A stretch of DNA of 19,651 nucleotides, from IMG/VR virus record IMGVR_UViG_2648501186_000006; one strand, written 5' to 3'. A program made the position numbers and the translations under genes. This DNA is from a virus (lineage: Duplodnaviria > Heunggongvirae > Uroviricota > Caudoviricetes). The notes under the pieces were generated by a model. It did not search any database. It was not told the DNA's origin and was given only the letters and a program-made list of their open reading frames with translations. Every line of letters begins with the position of its first letter. Position 1 is the first letter of the stretch. This document shows positions 10,568-18,130 of this stretch, piece after piece.

Positions 10568-10591
10568 AAGCTCCTACGGGAGCTTTTTTTT
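10568..10591 (+). terminator. Rho-independent terminator ending the structural gene block
   Basis: AGCTCC-tacg-GGAGCT stem-loop followed by 8 T. Confidence 0.7.
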
Positions 10592-10719
10592 ATAACTATT
10601 TTATATAAAAATGCATTGATAACATTGTCTGGAGTTTTATGTTAGATTATTAATGTTCTAATAAACTACAATTATTGAGGTAGAGGTTTGTGCCTGTACT
10701 GTTAAAGGGGGACTCTAAA

Positions 10720-11316
10720 ATGGCTGTGATTCCAATGTCGTACTCCCCGGGTACTGTCGCTCGTCGATTTTCGATCCTGGACGGAGTTACCATCCAGGGT
10801 GTGCTTTACCAGGTTATATGGGATTCCAAAACCCCATTTGCAGCTGTAATAGAGGCTGCGCCTTCTGTTATCGATGGTGATATGCGGCATAAGGTTGTCG
10901 CTACTCTTGAACTTCAACGTCGCCCGCAGCTTGAAGGTGTACTGGTAAGGAGGTTCTGGGAGGATAGTGATGTTGCCCAAATTGAAGGTATCGTGGTTGA
11001 TGGAACCGTCCGTGATGTCGGTTTAGCTACTTTTGTTTACGAAACCGTAGCCTCAAAAGCTGGTGTTGTTTTGCTTAGTGATAATGAGCAATACGAAGGT
11101 GGAAAAGCTCTTTGGCAACACATCGCCCGTCGCTCTTCCGAGCTAAAAGTGTTTATCCTCGACACCGATGCCGCTCAGTATTACCCGTTTGACGGCGAAC
11201 GTGTTTGCTATGACGGGGTAAGTATTCCTGAATCTGAGATATGGAGTGAACACCCAGATCGAAGTAAGCATGGGGTTGTTCTTGTCGCTGAATCCATAAC
11301 TGGAAAGGCGGCATAG
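10720..11316 (+). CDS. Hypothetical protein (199 aa) with its own promoter; weak GNAT-like motif
   Basis: Start ATG 10720 with SD AAGGGGG (track start is GTG 10690). Preceded by a terminator and a promoter-like TTGATA...TAGATT region. Segment RDVGLATFVYETVASKAGVVLLSDNEQYEGGKALW loosely resembles GNAT motif A. Confidence 0.55.
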   Translation: MAVIPMSYSPGTVARRFSILDGVTIQGVLYQVIWDSKTPFAAVIEAAPSVIDGDMRHKVVATLELQRRPQLEGVLVRRFWEDSDVAQIEGIVVDGTVRDVGLATFVYETVASKAGVVLLSDNEQYEGGKALWQHIARRSSELKVFILDTDAAQYYPFDGERVCYDGVSIPESEIWSEHPDRSKHGVVLVAESITGKAA

Positions 11317-11559
11317 CAGTAAAATTCCTTGCTCCTTAAAAGGGGAGAGGGTTAATCTAGATATGCTAAGCATGGATATGGCCTCAGATTAATGTTAAGC
11401 GTCTTGCAGGACGCGTAATGTTATCTGGGGCTTTCTTCTGTTATTTGTTTGAGTGCTAGGTAGCAAAGAGAGCTAGCATTCATCAGGCAAATCTATCAAT
11501 AAATAGCGTTAGTTTTTGTTGTGTGTATGTTTCTTTATTGTTATTGTGTTGTTTGTTTT

Positions 11560-11582
11560 TTGGACAACGCAATTCCTATAAT
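11560..11582 (+). promoter_or_regulatory. Candidate promoter for the DUF3892-like gene (perfect -10 TATAAT)
   Basis: TATAAT at 11577-11582, 22 nt upstream of the SD; the upstream TTGGAC spacing is suboptimal, so the -35 assignment is uncertain. Confidence 0.3.
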
Positions 11583-11604
11583 CTATAGAATAAAGGAAGT
11601 ATAT

Positions 11605-11892
11605 ATGGCTGATGTACGCATTACTTGCATTACCCTCTCCGGCTCGCAATCAATCCATGAGCATATTACTCATGTGGGAAGTCCTCAATTTAATACTAGC
11701 AATGGGAAATGGACTGTTGAGCAGGTAATTAATGCTATTGATAATAATCTCCATACATTCTATGTAACAGATAATGCAGGTAATCGTGTAGAAGTTGGGG
11801 TTGTTAATCCTGGTAATGGTGGAAGGCAGTTTATTAGAACGTATGCAGACAATCGATGGAATAATAATTTACTATCGCTACCAGTCTGTTAA
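11605..11892 (+). CDS. Small DUF3892-like protein (95 aa)
   Basis: ATG 11605 with SD AAGGAAG at 11593-11599. Motifs MADVRITCI...SGS..HEHITHVG...GKWTVEQVINAI...NLHTFYV.D..GNRVEVGVV...RTYADNRWNNNLLSLP.C match a small conserved family I recall as DUF3892. About 36% GC, well below the backbone. Confidence 0.6.
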   Translation: MADVRITCITLSGSQSIHEHITHVGSPQFNTSNGKWTVEQVINAIDNNLHTFYVTDNAGNRVEVGVVNPGNGGRQFIRTYADNRWNNNLLSLPVC

Positions 11893-11903
11893 TGTAATTT
11901 TAT

Positions 11904-11938
11904 AAAAAAGGCTGCAACCTCTGTTGCAGCCTTTTTTT
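11904..11938. terminator. Bidirectional intrinsic terminator between convergent genes
   Basis: A-run, GGCTGCAAC-ctct-GTTGCAGCC, T-run (7 T); can terminate both the + DUF3892-like gene and the - ATPase gene. Confidence 0.7.
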
Positions 11939-11962
11939 AGCCATTATGACTGAGATAAGCCA

Positions 11963-13018
11963 CTATAAACTCTGAACAAGACGTTCGATTGCTGCACCAT
12001 ATCTTTCTAATGGTTCATTATTGATTTGTGGCTCAGTGTCATGGATCTGATATCTGCCTGGTTTTATATCAAATAGAGGTCTTCCTAGATGGGAAGATAC
12101 TATAGCTACGGAATGGTTATCTGGCACAGTAAACGTTTTTAAATTTCCGCCTTGGAACGCTGTTGGTTTATTCGTCCGCAGATTTTCAGCTCTATCCCTG
12201 ATTTCGTCGAACATTGCCGAAAACGCTTTACTTGCTCGTTTGTCATACTCTGTCGAACGATTAAAAACTAGAGAATGAATGACAGGAACCGCTAGACCAA
12301 ACTGTTGACACCGATCGTAAAAGTTAACAGAACGATAATCGTTTTGTACTCCAACGCCATAAACCAACTGGCTTAGGTTATCCACTGCTCGAGCCGAAGA
12401 ACCATCACTTGAGCAAGGTATTATAATTGCATTTGCTGCTATCAGTGATAGTTCGGTATAGGCAGAGAAACTGGGGTTGCAATCAATAAAGCAAATGGTT
12501 TCTTCGATACCTTGTTGTTGTGCGCATGCAACAAGCAAATCTCGTAGCCACAGGTGGATGCTTTTCCATGAGTCAACTGGTAAGTTTACGCTGCTTAACT
12601 GATTGATTACTTGCGCCTGAACTTCCAGGCTTGGGTCGCCTGCAATCAAAAATACATTGTCAGGGACATGCTCGTTAATTTCAGAGACATGAATTAAGAA
12701 ACTTGTTTCTGAACCAGTAAGCATGTGGGGGCTACGGGTTCTTCTGTCAAAGTACCCACCGACAGTTTTTCGTTGTTGAATTAAGCTCGCGAGGTTAGCA
12801 GCACCAGTACCGTTACCGCCGAGCAATATTTCAGATAAGTTAGCCTGTGGACACATATCTGCAAAAATAATACGCTTTTCTGGATTTTGCCTTGCGTATT
12901 CACAGGCCATAGCGAAAGATAAGTAGGTCTTTCCTACGCCACCTTTATTATTCCAAATAGCATATGATTTCATGGTATCCCCGGCGTTATCTGCTGTTTG
13001 TGTGCCAGCATAAGTCAT
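11963..13018 (-). CDS. ParA/MinD-family P-loop ATPase (deviant Walker A), orphan with no adjacent ParB
   Basis: NNKGGVGKT Walker A and hydrophobic-D Walker B (ICFIDCNPS). 351 aa from ATG 13018, or 336 aa from ATG 12973 which puts Walker A at residues 9-16; both have a plausible SD. Co-directional with and just downstream of repL; about 41% GC. Confidence 0.7.
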   Translation of the reverse strand: MTYAGTQTADNAGDTMKSYAIWNNKGGVGKTYLSFAMACEYARQNPEKRIIFADMCPQANLSEILLGGNGTGAANLASLIQQRKTVGGYFDRRTRSPHMLTGSETSFLIHVSEINEHVPDNVFLIAGDPSLEVQAQVINQLSSVNLPVDSWKSIHLWLRDLLVACAQQQGIEETICFIDCNPSFSAYTELSLIAANAIIIPCSSDGSSARAVDNLSQLVYGVGVQNDYRSVNFYDRCQQFGLAVPVIHSLVFNRSTEYDKRASKAFSAMFDEIRDRAENLRTNKPTAFQGGNLKTFTVPDNHSVAIVSSHLGRPLFDIKPGRYQIHDTEPQINNEPLERYGAAIERLVQSL

Positions 13019-13282
13019 TATGCATCTCCATTACTATCCATGAATTAAGTCAAAAAATATGTAAAAGTAGCAATTTATCACTCTTTTACTCATTATAAAC
13101 GTTACAGGTTGTGATGGTTAGCTGTGTTTTTATCAGTACAAGTTTTGATCTGGCTTTGGGGGGTTATATATGGATATGTCTCAAAGATGCCCTGCAAAAA
13201 GCGATCGCTAACTGTAAAAAATCAGATTGCATCTTCGACCTCAAACTGAAAACGCCAGGTGACTCCAGATTAGAGCAATCTA

Positions 13283-14128
13283 TCACCCTCTGAATCCTGC
13301 CGGTATACCCCATTGTTCGTTATCTTTATTTTTGGCTAAAACCGCATTAAGAGCTTCGTTTACCGTCATGCAATGCGGCAGATTATCGAAGTTTGATACC
13401 CCGCCAATATCAGGAGAACGCTTGTTCTTCAGGTAAGCATATTTCCGCGCTGCCGCCTCTACTTTCTGCTTGAACTCATGTTTTTGAGCGCGTTTTTTGG
13501 ATAAACGCAGATTGTCGGCCTTTGCTTTTGCCCCAGCGATCCATGAAGTCAATTTTTTGAGTTTGGTCGTTCCGGCAGCGCCGGAAACTGATCTTTTTGT
13601 TTTTTTAAATTGTGACTTCTTATTCTTTATTGCCACGTCATCCTGACAGGGGGAGGGGGTATCATTTTGACATGGGGGTGTGGATAAAAAATCAAATAAA
13701 GCCAATGTCTTAGCGAGAACAGCTTTAACCTTGGTTGCGGCTGAAGAGATCTTTAATTTGCTTTCAATTAGCGCATTTTTGGCTTGTTGAGCAAAGGCTA
13801 AAAAGGATGGTGTAAACCGGTACAGGTTAGCGCGGCGTTCACGGTGATCGCCGATAACAATCTCTACCGACAGGATTCCTTTGTTTACAGCTTCACGGAA
13901 TGCGCGAACGACGGTTGATTGGCTATAACCAGTTTCTGCCGCGATCATGCGGTGAGGCTTGTGAATGAAGTATTCACTGGTTGTTGCCGCGAGATTTGCA
14001 CATTGCGACAGGATATGCCCGGCGCTACGGGATAGACCGGAGTGTGTTACAAAGCAGGCCAATTCATAGCCAGAAAAAGTAAAATCGCTCATCGTTATAC
14101 AGCTCAGGAAAGTGACTTTAGCCAGCAT
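13283..14128 (-). CDS. repL: Lytic replication protein RepL (P1-type)
   Basis: Immediately downstream of kilA on the same strand under a C1-operator promoter, the P1 kilA-repL arrangement; sequence matches my recollection of RepL. True start may be the internal ATG at 14092 (MSDFTF...). Confidence 0.75.
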   Translation of the reverse strand: MLAKVTFLSCITMSDFTFSGYELACFVTHSGLSRSAGHILSQCANLAATTSEYFIHKPHRMIAAETGYSQSTVVRAFREAVNKGILSVEIVIGDHRERRANLYRFTPSFLAFAQQAKNALIESKLKISSAATKVKAVLAKTLALFDFLSTPPCQNDTPSPCQDDVAIKNKKSQFKKTKRSVSGAAGTTKLKKLTSWIAGAKAKADNLRLSKKRAQKHEFKQKVEAAARKYAYLKNKRSPDIGGVSNFDNLPHCMTVNEALNAVLAKNKDNEQWGIPAGFRG

Positions 14129-15027: not shown

Positions 15028-15044
15028 AAATTTATTAGAGCAAA
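15028..15044 (-). promoter_or_regulatory. C1 repressor operator (Op53-like), 16 of 17 match to ATTGCTCTAATAAATTT, over the kilA-repL promoter
   Basis: - strand reads tTTGCTCTAATAAATTT; located 70-90 bp upstream of the kilA start, as for P1 P53/Op53 (established knowledge). Confidence 0.55.
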
Positions 15045-16383: not shown

Positions 16384-16435
16384 AGTTACGGCCTCACAAT
16401 CAGGTTTAACAACCTGCTACCCGCTGCTAAACAGG

Positions 16436-16512
16436 TGGCAGGACGTGACGGGGTTAGCAGACTGGCGATTGTGAAACCAGCAGGCCGAAGCCTCCCCATC
16501 ACGCCCCACCAT
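16436..16512 (-). ncRNA. c4: c4 antisense repressor RNA (boundaries approximate)
   Basis: - strand segment CGTGATGGGG...CCCCGTCACG forms a closing stem and contains CACAATC (b') and CTGCTAACC (a'). Complementary targets occur upstream (a1 16592-16603, b1 16579-16585) and downstream (a2 16423-16433, b2 16395-16401, over the icd SD). Confidence 0.55.
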
Positions 16513-16630
16513 AATTTGGGCGTAACGCGGTTTTACGGACACAAAAATACCGCAATATCGGATATCTGCGGCTGTCCGCACAATCATTCAGGCTGCTAAA
16601 CCCGGTCGCAGAATTTGCTACGACGGCGGA

Positions 16631-16659
16631 ACTATAAGCCTGAACGATTAAAAGGTCAA
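16631..16659 (-). promoter_or_regulatory. Sigma70 promoter for the c4-icd-ant transcript (P51-like): TTGACC, 17 nt, TATAGT
   Basis: On the - strand TTGACC (16659-16654), a 17-nt spacer, then TATAGT (16636-16631); a1/b1, c4, icd and ant lie downstream. Confidence 0.6.
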
Positions 16660-16697: not shown

Positions 16698-16714
16698 AAA
16701 TTTATTAGAGTATT
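16698..16714 (-). promoter_or_regulatory. C1 operator-like site (15 of 17) in the divergent immI / sim-like control region
   Basis: - strand reads AATACTCTAATAAATTT against consensus ATTGCTCTAATAAATTT; sits between the P51-like promoter and the + strand secreted-protein operon. Confidence 0.45.
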
Positions 16715-16810: not shown

Positions 16811-16942
16811 ATGAGAAAACTATTACTATCGTTATTATTTATGGCTGGGACTGTTAATGCAGCATCAAGCGTAAAGGAGATTTGTACCGATTATACGAAA
16901 TACCTTTGGCAAGTTTACGCCTTTGCGATCAATGACTATTAA
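16811..16942 (+). CDS. Small secreted peptide precursor (43 aa, SPI-type signal peptide), first gene of the sim-like operon
   Basis: Not in the ORF track. ATG 16811 with SD GGTGAGG; MRKLLLSLLFMAGTVNA|ASS... is a textbook signal peptide with an AxA cleavage site; mature peptide about 26 aa. About 30% GC. Confidence 0.45.
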   Translation: MRKLLLSLLFMAGTVNAASSVKEICTDYTKYLWQVYAFAINDY

Positions 16943-16963
16943 TCCATGCGTAGGAGTGGATTT

Positions 16964-17281
16964 ATGCTGATTCGTTTGTTTTTAGTGCTTTCCTTTTTAA
17001 CATTTAATGTTTTTGCTGATGAAGTTGACTTTTCGAAGGTAGATTGTAATTCAGTGGAAACAAGAAAAGCTCTTATTGAAGAATATAACGAAATATTATC
17101 GTCATATGGAATAACAGTGGTTGATTCTTATAATCAAAAAACTATTCAGAAAGGAATAAATAAACTGGTCTGTTATGGGGTTTACCAATATTCAGATGGC
17201 TCTTCGGAGTATGTTATTTATAAAGCATACCCAAATAGTCTTGGTGAATTAATTAGTGAGTTTAAACCGATTAATGAGTGA
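16964..17281 (+). CDS. Secreted protein (105 aa, signal peptide), sim-like operon
   Basis: ATG 16964 with SD GGAG at 16952-16955 (track start 16946 is upstream of the SD). N-terminus MLIRLFLVLSFLTFNVFA|DEV is a signal peptide. Confidence 0.55.
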   Translation: MLIRLFLVLSFLTFNVFADEVDFSKVDCNSVETRKALIEEYNEILSSYGITVVDSYNQKTIQKGINKLVCYGVYQYSDGSSEYVIYKAYPNSLGELISEFKPINE

Positions 17282-17288
17282 ATGGAAA

Positions 17289-18068
17289 ATGAAATTATTT
17301 AATGTAATAACATTTTGTTGTGCTATTTTTGCTGGAAGCGCGATAGCTGATAATAAATTGCCAGATTGGCTTTCTACCTCAAAGAAAGATTATGATTTAG
17401 TAAGGGCATTCTATTTGTCTGGATTTGCTTCGAAAGCAATGAACAATCAATTTGGTTATCATTTGCCATCTGAGTTGGTTAATGATTTTAAAGATAATGA
17501 ATTTGCTGCTCAGGAAAAATGGAACACAATTCCAATTGTGTATGGTGAAATAAAATCCATAAGAATGGTGAATAATAAACCAATTGTAGAGTTATTTACT
17601 CCAGGGGAAAATGCAACGCCACTAAATTATATCAAATTGAAAATATTGGATTCAAAGCAAGACTCTCTGTTAAAACTAAAAAAAGGGGATGATATATATG
17701 CAGTGTGCTCAGGTGCTAATTTTAGCTTAGTGCCAATTCTGAGCAACTGCACTCCTGCAACAGACGTCATTGATGCTGCACTCTCTTTTTCTGGTGAATA
17801 TATGTTCCCTGCTTTTGATTCTTTTTCACCTACTAAGCAAAACGTCAAATATATATTCACAAATCAAGATCCTGTTCAGATGATGAATTTTATAGGGTAC
17901 CTATCCTTAGTCGATACAACGAAGGATAAGAAAAAAATGGATATGGTTCGTAAGTGTACGCCTTGGAAGCCGGAATGTTCACAACAATTCGTTGATGTAA
18001 TGGAAGGATTTGATAGCATCATGTATAAATATGAGGGAGAATTTAAAAATTACATAGAATTAAAATAG
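17289..18068 (+). CDS. Secreted or periplasmic protein (259 aa, signal peptide), candidate SimC-like superinfection exclusion protein
   Basis: ATG 17289 gives MKLFNVITFCCAIFAGSAIA|DNK (track start 17256 adds 11 aa before the signal peptide). Third gene of an AT-rich operon divergent from c4-icd-ant, the position of P1 sim; no sequence-level confirmation. Confidence 0.55.
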   Translation: MKLFNVITFCCAIFAGSAIADNKLPDWLSTSKKDYDLVRAFYLSGFASKAMNNQFGYHLPSELVNDFKDNEFAAQEKWNTIPIVYGEIKSIRMVNNKPIVELFTPGENATPLNYIKLKILDSKQDSLLKLKKGDDIYAVCSGANFSLVPILSNCTPATDVIDAALSFSGEYMFPAFDSFSPTKQNVKYIFTNQDPVQMMNFIGYLSLVDTTKDKKKMDMVRKCTPWKPECSQQFVDVMEGFDSIMYKYEGEFKNYIELK

Positions 18069-18097
18069 TATTTGAAAGGATAGTCAATTTAAGTTTT

Positions 18098-18130
18098 AAA
18101 AAAACGCCCATTAAAGGGCGTTTTATTGTT
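18098..18130 (+). terminator. Rho-independent terminator after the sim-like operon
   Basis: A-run, ACGCCC-attaaa-GGGCGT, then TTTTATTGTTTT. Confidence 0.6.

What the first reader, a model, noticed from the sequence alone, without database searches (positions are those of the whole stretch)
11330..13282. Low-GC island downstream of repL: convergent DUF3892-like small protein and orphan ParA/MinD-type ATPase
GC drops from about 50% (backbone) to about 36-41% across exactly these two genes. The 95-aa protein has its own promoter and SD and carries conserved HEHITHVG / NNLL-LP-C motifs typical of a widespread uncharacterised family. The 351-aa protein is a deviant Walker A (KGGVGKT) ATPase with no ParB partner or centromere nearby, lying co-directional with and immediately after the lytic replicon kilA-repL. 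The two genes converge on a shared bidirectional terminator. P1 carries rlfA and rlfB (replication-linked functions) at this position; I cannot tell from memory whether these are homologues or a replacement cargo. An orphan ParA-like ATPase expressed with the lytic replicon, paired with a constitutively expressed small conserved protein, is a plausible two-component accessory system (positioning of replicating phage DNA, interference with host division or Min/Par systems, or defence/anti-defence), and I know of no described function for the pair.
Basis: partly seen in the sequence, partly recalled or inferred. Interest (0 to 1): 0.62.

Follow-up and report, generated by a model that had tools for sequence, protein, structure and literature searches.

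The report
Two unrelated cargo genes in P1
The two genes are real and sit in a known swap-in/swap-out slot of a P1-like phage-plasmid, but they are two independent passenger genes rather than a partnered system; the more interesting one is an unusually conserved, unstudied ParA-like ATPase that other prophages carry right behind their repressor gene.

Summary
A 1.74-kb low-GC block (window 11440-13181, 39% GC) carries a 95-aa DUF3892 protein and a convergent ParA/MinD-fold ATPase that share a strong bidirectional terminator. It replaces P1's rlfA/rlfB downstream of repL.

The interpretation as a two-component system is not supported.
- The pair occurs only as one near-clonal module (98-100% identical) in about 40 P1-like plasmids.
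- Among roughly 155 other ATPase loci, DUF3892 lies nearby once, and there it belongs to a different operon.
- Among 30 other viral DUF3892 loci, the ATPase is never nearby.
- DNA homology to relatives stops at each gene's own boundaries.
- The slot is a published variable, dispensable region of P1-like elements.

Most likely these are two independent accessory genes. The ATPase belongs to a compact, strongly conserved clade: 55-60% identity across bacterial phyla and about 50% to archaeal MAGs. A cysteine replaces the catalytic aspartate of Soj/MinD (DxCPQ). In lambdoid prophages of Escherichia/Serratia, Klebsiella and Pseudomonas it sits directly downstream of cI, the lambda rexAB position, which suggests an exclusion or defence role. 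DUF3892 is a predicted conflict-system sensor found next to varying effector-like genes. Neither function has been tested.

The parts
11440..13181 (.). Cargo block: the segment that replaces 252 bp of the closest P1-like relative lacking it (phage vB_EcoM-673R5). It holds both genes; GC is 0.394.
   Evidence: The BLASTN breakpoints against L184/L185 fall at 11439 and 13182. GC. The whole block is 98-99% identical in about 40 P1-like plasmids.
11573..11604 (+). Putative expression signals of the DUF3892 gene: a perfect -10 (TATAAT, 11577-11582), a Shine-Dalgarno sequence (AAGGAAG, 11593-11599) and an imperfect palindrome (11573-11598) that overlaps both.
   Evidence: Read directly from the sequence. 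Palindrome I2, 88% complementary. The consensus promoter scan did not call this site, so it is an inference.
11605..11892 (+). DUF3892 protein, 95 aa. Cys8, the I-T-H-V-G motif (His23), the N-L-L motif and the C-terminal Cys95 are invariant.
11904..11937 (.). Bidirectional intrinsic terminator shared by the two convergent genes.
   Evidence: Perfect 15-bp arms with a 4-nt loop. dG -21.3 kcal/mol, z = -5.7.
11963..13018 (-). Orphan ParA/MinD-fold ATPase of the DxCPQ clade. The ORF is 351 aa; the probable true start is Met16 (ATG 12973-12971), giving 336 aa. Motifs: NNKGGVGKT (both lysines present), DMCPQAN with Cys in place of the Soj D44 / MinD D40 catalytic Asp, and DCNPSF as Walker B.
13019..13181 (-). 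Upstream region of the ATPase inside the cargo block. It has a perfect -10 hexamer (TATAAT, 13097-13092) and a weak -35. No terminator was detected here.
   Evidence: Read from the minus-strand sequence. The scan found no promoter or terminator here at its thresholds, so a private promoter is an inference.
13269..13279 (-). Backbone, not cargo: core of the C1 repressor operator Orlf/Op55, just after the repL stop codon. It is conserved with P1.
   Evidence: Exact ATTGCTCTAAT. It aligns with the operator annotated in P1.

Best explanation
The island holds two independent, separately mobile accessory genes. They were dropped into 'variable region 5' (the rlfA-rlfB-pmgF slot between bplB and repL) of one sublineage of P1-like phage-plasmids and have been inherited together since then as one clonal block. 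They are not a functional pair.

Gene 1 (DUF3892) is a small stand-alone copy of a domain that elsewhere heads or ends operons with varying effector-like partners. In P1 and in E. coli satellite-like elements it stands alone. The published prediction is that it acts as a sensor or adaptor in conflict systems.

Gene 2 is a solo ParA-fold ATPase. From its motifs I infer that it binds ATP and forms the sandwich dimer, because both the signature lysine and the Walker A lysine are present. I also infer that it hydrolyses ATP slowly, because the water-activating Asp is replaced by an invariant Cys. That would make it an ATP-gated switch or scaffold rather than a partition motor.

Because it repeatedly sits immediately downstream of cI, the lambda rexAB slot, I infer that it is a lysogeny-associated exclusion or defence gene, or another lysogenic-conversion gene.

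Shown here: the gene anatomy, family membership, lack of co-occurrence, the hot-spot location, purifying selection, the Asp-to-Cys substitution and the cI adjacency. Inferred: slow hydrolysis, the defence or exclusion role, and how each gene is expressed in P1.
For: The slot:
- P1 has rlfA/rlfB here, P7 has rapA/rapB, and other relatives have only a hok/mok remnant or IS elements.
- The region is published as low-GC variable region 5 (PMC9603915).
- '3 orfs between repL and bplB substitute rlfA-rlfB-pmgF' was noted in pTZ20_1P (PMC6906374).
- rlfA, rlfB and pmgF are non-essential by CRISPRi (PMC10695390).

Independence of the two genes:
- DUF3892 is absent from all non-P1 viral ATPase loci.
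- It occurs in 1 of about 155 non-P1 ATPase loci overall, inside another operon.
- The ATPase is absent from 30 non-P1 DUF3892 loci.
- Nucleotide homology to relatives is confined to each CDS.
- 146 neighbours from 52 dereplicated ATPase loci show no recurrent partner.
- The ATPase is destroyed by IS elements while DUF3892 stays intact in CP122667.1.

Within the P1 lineage:
- 42 plasmids carry both genes at 98-100% identity, consistent with a single acquisition.

The ATPase:
- The fold is ParA-like.
- The Cys aligns with Soj D44.
- DxCPQ is present in about 65 of 74 full-length representatives from an unbiased HMMER scan.
- A CI-like repressor lies directly upstream on the same strand in 32 loci, from three divergent clades.
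- This includes the annotated phages phi297 and ST11-VIM1phi8.2.
- An N antiterminator lies downstream.

DUF3892:
- Varying partners: FRG, DUF4917 or DUF2188.
- It has been linked to defence and to CapH/CapP regulators in the literature.
Against: - Within P1-like plasmids the two genes are always found together and share one terminator and one indel block. A pair-specific function that arose in this lineage cannot be excluded.
- One independent locus (L129) also has them convergent and about 950 bp apart.
- Neither protein, nor any neighbour pattern, matches a PADLOC model. The defence reading rests on position and context only.
- The very high conservation of the ATPase (64% mean column identity) is unlike typical fast-evolving defence genes.
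- In P1 the ATPase is co-oriented with the lytic replicon, not with a lysogenic repressor.
- No biochemical data exist for the Cys variant.
Confidence: 0.6

Rival explanations
1. One reading: DUF3892 and the ATPase form a two-component accessory system, for example a sensor plus an ATPase effector, or a toxin-antitoxin-like pair.
For: - They are always linked in P1-like plasmids.
- They are convergent and share a terminator.
- They form a single replacement block.
- One further co-location exists, in L129.
Against: - The linkage in P1 is clonal (98-100% identity), so it counts as one event.
- 0 of 30 and about 1 of 155 co-occurrence elsewhere.
- In L129, DUF3892 belongs to a Multi-ubiquitin/ThiF operon.
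- The genes are convergent rather than co-transcribed.
- DUF3892 persists with the ATPase disrupted. This argues against the ATPase being an essential antidote.
Confidence: 0.1
2. The ATPase is a replication-linked function of the P1 lytic replicon. It would be co-transcribed with kilA-repL after C1 derepression and would position or organise replicating phage DNA, or modulate host DnaA or cell division as Soj and MinD do.
For: - It is on the same strand as repL, 264 bp downstream, with no terminator detected between them.
- The C1 operator core is retained at 13269-13279 and Op53 lies upstream of kilA.
- The fold is ParA/MinD-like.
Against: - The same gene family sits behind cI in integrated lambdoid prophages, where it would be expressed in lysogeny.
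- The slot is dispensable and variable.
- Most P1-like elements lack the gene.
- It has a candidate -10 of its own.
Confidence: 0.15
3. The ATPase is a second partition or maintenance ATPase for the plasmid prophage.
For: RefSeq and PHROGs annotate it as a 'ParA family' or 'ParA-like partition protein'.
Against: - No ParB and no centromere-like repeats nearby.
- It scores 39.9 bits against a cut-off of 180 for NCBIfam ParA_partition.
- The family is common in integrated prophages and in chromosomes, as a solo gene.
- The catalytic Asp is replaced.
- P1-type elements already carry parAB (known from P1 biology; PMC6906374).
Confidence: 0.05
4. The solo DUF3892 is a counter-defence decoy. A phage-borne copy of a host sensor domain would titrate or poison DUF3892-containing host immune systems.
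For: - DUF3892 occurs in host conflict operons with effector-like partners.
- It occurs alone, without an effector, in P1 and in satellite-like elements.
- The published prediction is that it is a sensor domain.
Against: There is no direct evidence. Solo copies are 50-70% identical to the operon-borne ones and show the same invariant residues, which fits either role equally well.
Confidence: 0.1

Closest known systems
P1 rlfA-rlfB / P7 rapA-rapB (variable region 5 of P1-like phage-plasmids)
   Same: Same chromosomal slot between bplB/pmgF and repL. Low GC. Downstream of the Orlf C1 operator. Dispensable cargo.
   Different: No sequence homology: best BLASTP E is about 1 and there is no DNA homology. 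rlfA is a DUF3800 protein. Here the genes are convergent, whereas in P1 both are co-oriented with repL.
ParA/Soj/MinD/McdA deviant Walker A ATPases
   Different: - An invariant Cys replaces the catalytic Asp (Soj D44 / MinD D40).
- Walker B is DxNPSF rather than DxPPS.
- About 80 extra residues, with many family-specific invariant motifs (GDPSLE, PCSSDGSSAR, NRST, ASKAF, PDxHS).
- No ParB, MinE or McdB-type partner gene.
- It fails the NCBIfam partition-ParA cut-off.
- It occurs as a solo gene on mobile elements.
Lambda rexA-rexB and other genes in the cI-to-N slot of lambdoid prophages
   Same: In 32 loci the ATPase occupies this slot: cro is divergent, cI and the ATPase are co-oriented, and N lies beyond. 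In lambda this slot holds lysogenically expressed exclusion genes (established lambda biology; gene order also in PMC10695390).
   Different: No sequence or fold relation to RexA or RexB. It is a single gene. No exclusion phenotype has been shown. In the P1 window the gene is not next to a repressor.
DUF3892-containing predicted conflict systems (Burroughs and Aravind 2020 as cited; CapH/CapP-associated DUF3892 operons; Min-Wnt-DUF3892 fusions)
   Same: Same Pfam domain with the same invariant residues. Mobile-element context.
   Different: The P1 copy is a stand-alone 95-aa protein with its own terminator. It has no fused or co-transcribed effector and no CapH/CapP-type regulator.
DIP2308 of Corynebacterium diphtheriae (PDB 3pg5)
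   Different: About 20% identity. It keeps the canonical DxDPQ aspartate.

Membership tests
Pfam PF13031 DUF3892 | Score above the curated gathering threshold over the full domain | tested here: met
   57.7 bits against a cut-off of 22.3; profile positions 1-71 of 71 are matched.
ParA/MinD superfamily (deviant Walker A, SIMIBI class) | KGGxGK[ST] P-loop with the N-terminal signature lysine | tested here: met
   NNKGGVGKT is invariant in alignments A1 and A2.
ParA/MinD superfamily (deviant Walker A, SIMIBI class) | ParA/MinD three-dimensional fold | tested here: met
ParA/MinD superfamily (deviant Walker A, SIMIBI class) | Catalytic Asp of Walker A' (DxDPQ; Soj D44 / MinD D40) | tested here: not met
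   A Cys occupies this position (DMCPQ). It aligns with the mutated residue of Soj D44A in 2bek. The Cys is present in about 65 of 74 full-length representatives.
Partition ParA (ParABS-type segregation system) | Equivalog-level sequence match (NCBIfam NF041546) | tested here: not met
   39.9 bits against a cut-off of 180.
Partition ParA (ParABS-type segregation system) | Adjacent ParB/adaptor gene and centromere repeats | tested here: not met
   No such ORF or repeat array in 11300-13300. No recurrent partner among 146 neighbours from 52 loci.
Partition ParA (ParABS-type segregation system) | ATP-dependent non-specific DNA binding and partner-stimulated hydrolysis | not testable with these tools
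   This needs biochemistry.
Known or candidate anti-phage defence systems (PADLOC-DB v2) | HMM match of either protein to a catalogued defence component | tested here: not met
   No hits at E <= 0.1 for DUF3892, the ATPase or the 208-aa neighbour.
Known or candidate anti-phage defence systems (PADLOC-DB v2) | Protection against phage when expressed | not testable with these tools
   No experimental report was found in the searched literature.
Conserved two-gene system (DUF3892 + ATPase) | Co-occurrence of the two genes in unrelated genomes | tested here: not met
   Found together only in clonal P1-like loci plus L129, where DUF3892 belongs to another operon.
P1 rlfA/rlfB orthologues | Sequence homology to RlfA or RlfB | tested here: not met
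   Best BLASTP E-values are 1.1-2.5. No DNA homology between 10589 and 13269.

The most novel reading that the evidence does not exclude
The DxCPQ ParA-like ATPase is a new single-gene, lysogeny-expressed exclusion or defence module. It would be an ATP-locked ParA dimer that acts on incoming or competing DNA elements, or on a conserved host target. It has spread by horizontal transfer across bacterial phyla and into archaea, and it repeatedly occupies the rexAB slot of temperate phages. It would be the first immune effector built on a ParA/MinD scaffold.
Probability: 0.25. Interest if true: 0.7.

Novelty: new variant of a known kind. Interest (0 to 1): 0.4.

Why it matters
For P1 biology the result is modest. 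It shows that one more occupant of a known hot spot is cargo, and that 'ParA family protein' is a misleading name for it.

The wider value lies in the ATPase clade.
- It is a compact family: 97 clusters at E <= 1e-30 among 1.84 billion representatives.
- It is 55-60% identical across phyla.
- It has a diagnostic substitution of the catalytic residue.
- It has a stereotyped position behind prophage repressors, and no described function.

If it proves to be an exclusion or defence gene, it would add a new protein scaffold to prophage-encoded immunity and give a simple single-gene system to study. If not, it is still an uncharacterised lysogenic-conversion gene carried by clinical E. coli, Klebsiella, Serratia and Pseudomonas prophages.

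The data also add context for DUF3892: it is a small module paired with interchangeable effector-like genes (FRG, DUF4917, DUF2188, Ub-like E1 operons).

Tried and rejected
- PADLOC scans of both proteins and of 146 neighbours found no system-level match.
- A Pfam census of neighbours looking for a partner of the ATPase found none. The hits were only integrases, IS elements, methyltransferases and sporadic HEPN, SocA and M78 proteins.
- The genome-contig scan with a single sequence returned only 4 loci. I should have used an alignment. It did reveal homologues in archaeal MAGs.
- Rfam found no RNA family in the island. The only hits in the window were C4 and its a1b1 targets, elsewhere.
- The generic promoter/terminator scan found no convincing promoter for either gene and missed the obvious terminator.
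- I searched for centromere-like repeats and found only chance two-copy matches.
- A donor carrying both genes as one block could not be found. Homology with relatives ends at the CDS borders.
- Literature searches for a ParA-like defence gene or for this gene pair found nothing relevant.
- dN/dS for the ATPase could not be given as a ratio because dS is saturated.
Full report
**1. What is in the window**

The window is a P1-like (IncY-type) phage-plasmid segment. It carries bplB, a PmgF-related gene, repL, kilA, ant, C4 RNA and sim-like genes.

- 11605-11892 (+) encodes a 95-aa protein that passes the Pfam DUF3892 model (57.7 bits against a cut-off of 22.3). It also matches phrog_8224.
- 11963-13018 (-) encodes a 351-aa protein with the deviant Walker A NNKGGVGKT. 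It hits AAA_31, CbiA and phrog_164.

The genes converge on a perfect 15-bp hairpin flanked by A and T runs at 11904-11937 (dG -21.3 kcal/mol, z = -5.7).

GC is 0.385 for DUF3892, 0.423 for the ATPase and 0.36 for the intergenic DNA. Flanking backbone genes are 0.46-0.50.

There is no ParB gene and no repeat array.

One amendment: the ATPase most likely starts at Met16 (ATG 12973-12971), giving 336 aa. Homologues are 333-338 aa, and nucleotide homology with relatives ends at 12979-12986.

**2. The island is cargo in a known hot spot**

- Against P1 itself, homology stops at 10589 and resumes at 13269, at the core of the C1 operator Orlf/Op55 just after repL.
- Against the closest relative that lacks the genes (phage vB_EcoM-673R5), the breakpoints are 11439 and 13182. 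The insert is therefore 11440-13181, and it replaces 252 bp.
- P1 has rlfA (DUF3800) and rlfB here, and P7 has rapA/rapB. Others have a mokW/hok element or IS elements.
- RlfA and RlfB are not homologous to either protein (best E about 1).
- The literature already lists rlfA-rlfB-pmgF as one of eight low-GC variable regions of P1-like phage-plasmids (PMC9603915).
- It also notes '3 orfs between repL and bplB' substituting for them in pTZ20_1P (PMC6906374).
- rlfA, rlfB and pmgF are non-essential for plaque formation (PMC10695390).
- None of the 50,697 deposited phage records carries the block.
- About 40 PLSDB plasmids and 38 of 5,426 complete E. coli genomes carry it, at 98-99% identity.

**3. 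Are the two genes a pair?**

Within P1-like plasmids they are always together. DUF3892 is in 42 P1-like records and the ATPase is in the same 42. At 98-100% identity this counts as a single acquisition.

Outside this lineage the association disappears.
- I built a DUF3892 HMM from 112 homologues and scanned all ORFs of at least 40 aa in every fetched locus. Among the 80 viral-contig ATPase loci it hit only the P1-like ones.
- Among the 80 metagenome ATPase loci it hit the one P1-like locus (L103) and one independent locus, L129.
- In L129, DUF3892 is the terminal gene of a Multi-ubiquitin/ThiF(E1) operon with a divergent HTH plus Peptidase_M78 pair. This is the CapH/CapP-type arrangement described in the literature. 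The ATPase lies beyond a SEC-C gene and next to an IS1 fragment.
- In the reciprocal test, 30 non-P1 viral loci with DUF3892 have no ATPase within 4 kb.
- The contexts looked up individually agree. The ATPase is alone in Oleidesulfovibrio, Serratia and Halomonas.
- DUF3892 is alone in E. coli satellite-like elements, lies next to an FRG gene in a Salmonella island, and lies next to DUF2188 in Methylotenera.
- Nucleotide homology with all non-P1 relatives is confined to each CDS.
- In CP122667.1 the ATPase is cut by IS91/IS100 while DUF3892 remains intact.

I leave it about 10% because a lineage-specific partnership cannot be excluded by comparative data alone.

**4. The ATPase**

Distribution and conservation:
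- The word-indexed search returned 4,521 homologues. They are 55-60% identical across Pseudomonadota, Desulfobacterota, Patescibacteria and others.
- Archaeal MAG contigs encode proteins 48-52% identical.
- Mean column identity in a 41-sequence alignment is 64%, and there are many invariant motifs beyond the nucleotide site.
- Against relatives about 90% identical in protein, nucleotide identity is only 74-77%, and dN is 0.07 with saturated dS. This indicates strong purifying selection.
- An exhaustive HMMER scan of 1.84 billion representatives (50% clusters) gave only 1,189 hits at E <= 1e-3 and 97 at E <= 1e-30. The clade is compact.

Structure and motifs:
- The HMMER alignment to Soj places the family's invariant Cys (DMCPQAN) at Soj Asp44. 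The 2bek sequence, which I recall is the D44A mutant, reads VDLAPQ at that position.
- That D44A and the MinD D40 equivalent are the classic hydrolysis-deficient mutations rests on my own knowledge of the Soj and MinD literature.
- In the unbiased representative set, about 65 of 74 full-length members have DxCPQ, and most have DxNPSF as Walker B.
- The protein fails the NCBIfam partition-ParA equivalog (39.9 bits against a cut-off of 180) and has no PADLOC match.

Genomic position:
- In 32 non-P1 loci (30 of 69 viral ones), a CI-like repressor (HTH_3 plus Peptidase_S24) lies directly upstream on the same strand, with gaps of 37-433 bp.
- These loci come from three divergent ATPase clades, about 90%, 71% and 36% identical to the window protein.
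- An N-antiterminator gene lies downstream in several of them.
- Independent annotations of Pseudomonas phage phi297 and Klebsiella phage ST11-VIM1phi8.2 show cro divergent, then cI, then the 'ParA-like' gene.
- This is the position of rexA-rexB in lambda.
- The neighbours of 52 dereplicated loci show no recurrent partner. They are mobile-element or defence-island genes such as integrases, IS elements, methyltransferases, HEPN, SocA, PD-Lambda-2_B and M78.

**5. DUF3892**

- The family is 50-73% identical across Proteobacteria and beyond. Cys8, I-T-H-V-G, N-L-L and the C-terminal Cys are invariant.
- dN/dS is about 0.1.
- The AF2 model (pLDDT 80) has no significant PDB match.
- Downstream genes vary: FRG, DUF4917, DUF2188 plus unknowns, or none.
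- Published analyses predict a sensor role for RNA or ribosomes in conflict systems, and link the domain to CapH/CapP regulators.

**6. Mechanism and confidence**

The best explanation (about 0.6) is two independent accessory genes parked in a dispensable hot spot. For the ATPase I infer an ATP-dependent dimeric switch with slow hydrolysis that is used for exclusion, defence or lysogenic conversion. For DUF3892 I infer a stand-alone sensor or adaptor, or possibly a decoy. The functional parts are inference only. Expression in P1 is unresolved: the ATPase could be read through from the C1-controlled kilA-repL operon, since no terminator was detected and Op53 lies at 15028-15044. It could also use its own -10 at 13097-13092.

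**7. Novelty and score**

The island as such is an already noted substitution in a known variable region. The pair hypothesis fails. What remains new is the definition of the DxCPQ ParA-like clade and its cI-adjacent, solo, cross-phylum distribution, for which I found no description. I rate it a new variant of a known kind, with interest 0.4. The most novel reading, a ParA-scaffold exclusion or defence gene, has a probability of about 0.25.

Noticed in passing
window 11350-11439: A 90-bp segment 95.6% identical to the region just upstream of the mokW (hok-family) gene in a P1 relative, and 87-89% identical to hok/mok loci of many lambdoid phages. No Hok-like ORF and no Rfam hit are present here, so it looks like a remnant of a hok/sok locus at the left edge of the island.
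   Followed up: partly
window 10690-11316: A 208-aa ORF (phrog_7522). Residues 14-76 are 43% identical to the 98-aa P1 PmgF. The C-terminal extension has only a sub-threshold GNAT-like hit (E = 0.07). It is probably a longer PmgF variant and part of the same variable region.
   Followed up: partly
window 11573-11598: An imperfect palindrome (TTCCTATAATCTATAGAATAAAGGAA) covers both the -10 hexamer and the Shine-Dalgarno sequence of the DUF3892 gene. It could be an operator or a translational hairpin.
   Followed up: no
window 16431-16516 and 16585-16637: C4 antisense RNA (69.6 bits) and its a1/b1 target elements (55.5 bits) of the P1 immI region, with a C1 operator-like site at 16698-16714.
   Followed up: no
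window ~16900-18100: A second, deeper low-GC island (30-35% GC) with two signal-peptide-like ORFs of 111 and 270 aa. It lies at the position of the P1 sim (superimmunity) variable region.
   Followed up: no
L129 1-6445 (metagenome contig Ga0097691_1002847): A compact island containing an IS1 fragment, the DxCPQ ATPase, a SEC-C motif protein and a Multi-ubiquitin / unknown / ThiF-E1 / DUF3892 operon with a divergent HTH plus Peptidase_M78 (CapH/CapP-like) pair.
   Followed up: partly
L097-L099 and L200-L201; L224; L100-L102: DUF3892 genes are followed, on the same strand, by different effector-like genes: an FRG-domain protein (Salmonella island and viral contigs), DUF4917, or DUF2188 plus unknown proteins. 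This suggests one sensor module with interchangeable partners.
   Followed up: partly
L009, L011, L012 (archaeal MAG contigs): The ATPase family is 48-52% identical to proteins encoded on long contigs assigned to Methanoperedenaceae, an uncultured archaeon and Bathyarchaeia. The Bathyarchaeia copy is split into two ORFs, so it may be a pseudogene.
   Followed up: no
L228 (CP122667.1 10148-12536) and NZ_CP122664.1: Natural knock-out: in two pig ETEC plasmids the 5' part of the ATPase is removed by IS91-like and IS100 insertions, while the DUF3892 gene is intact.
   Followed up: partly
L093-L096 and L202-L209: The closest non-P1 DUF3892 (73% identity) sits alone, on the opposite strand, at the edge of an E. 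coli element that carries capsid, head-decoration, AlpA, SSB and D5-primase genes. The element resembles a capsid-forming phage satellite and abuts lambdoid tail genes.
   Followed up: no
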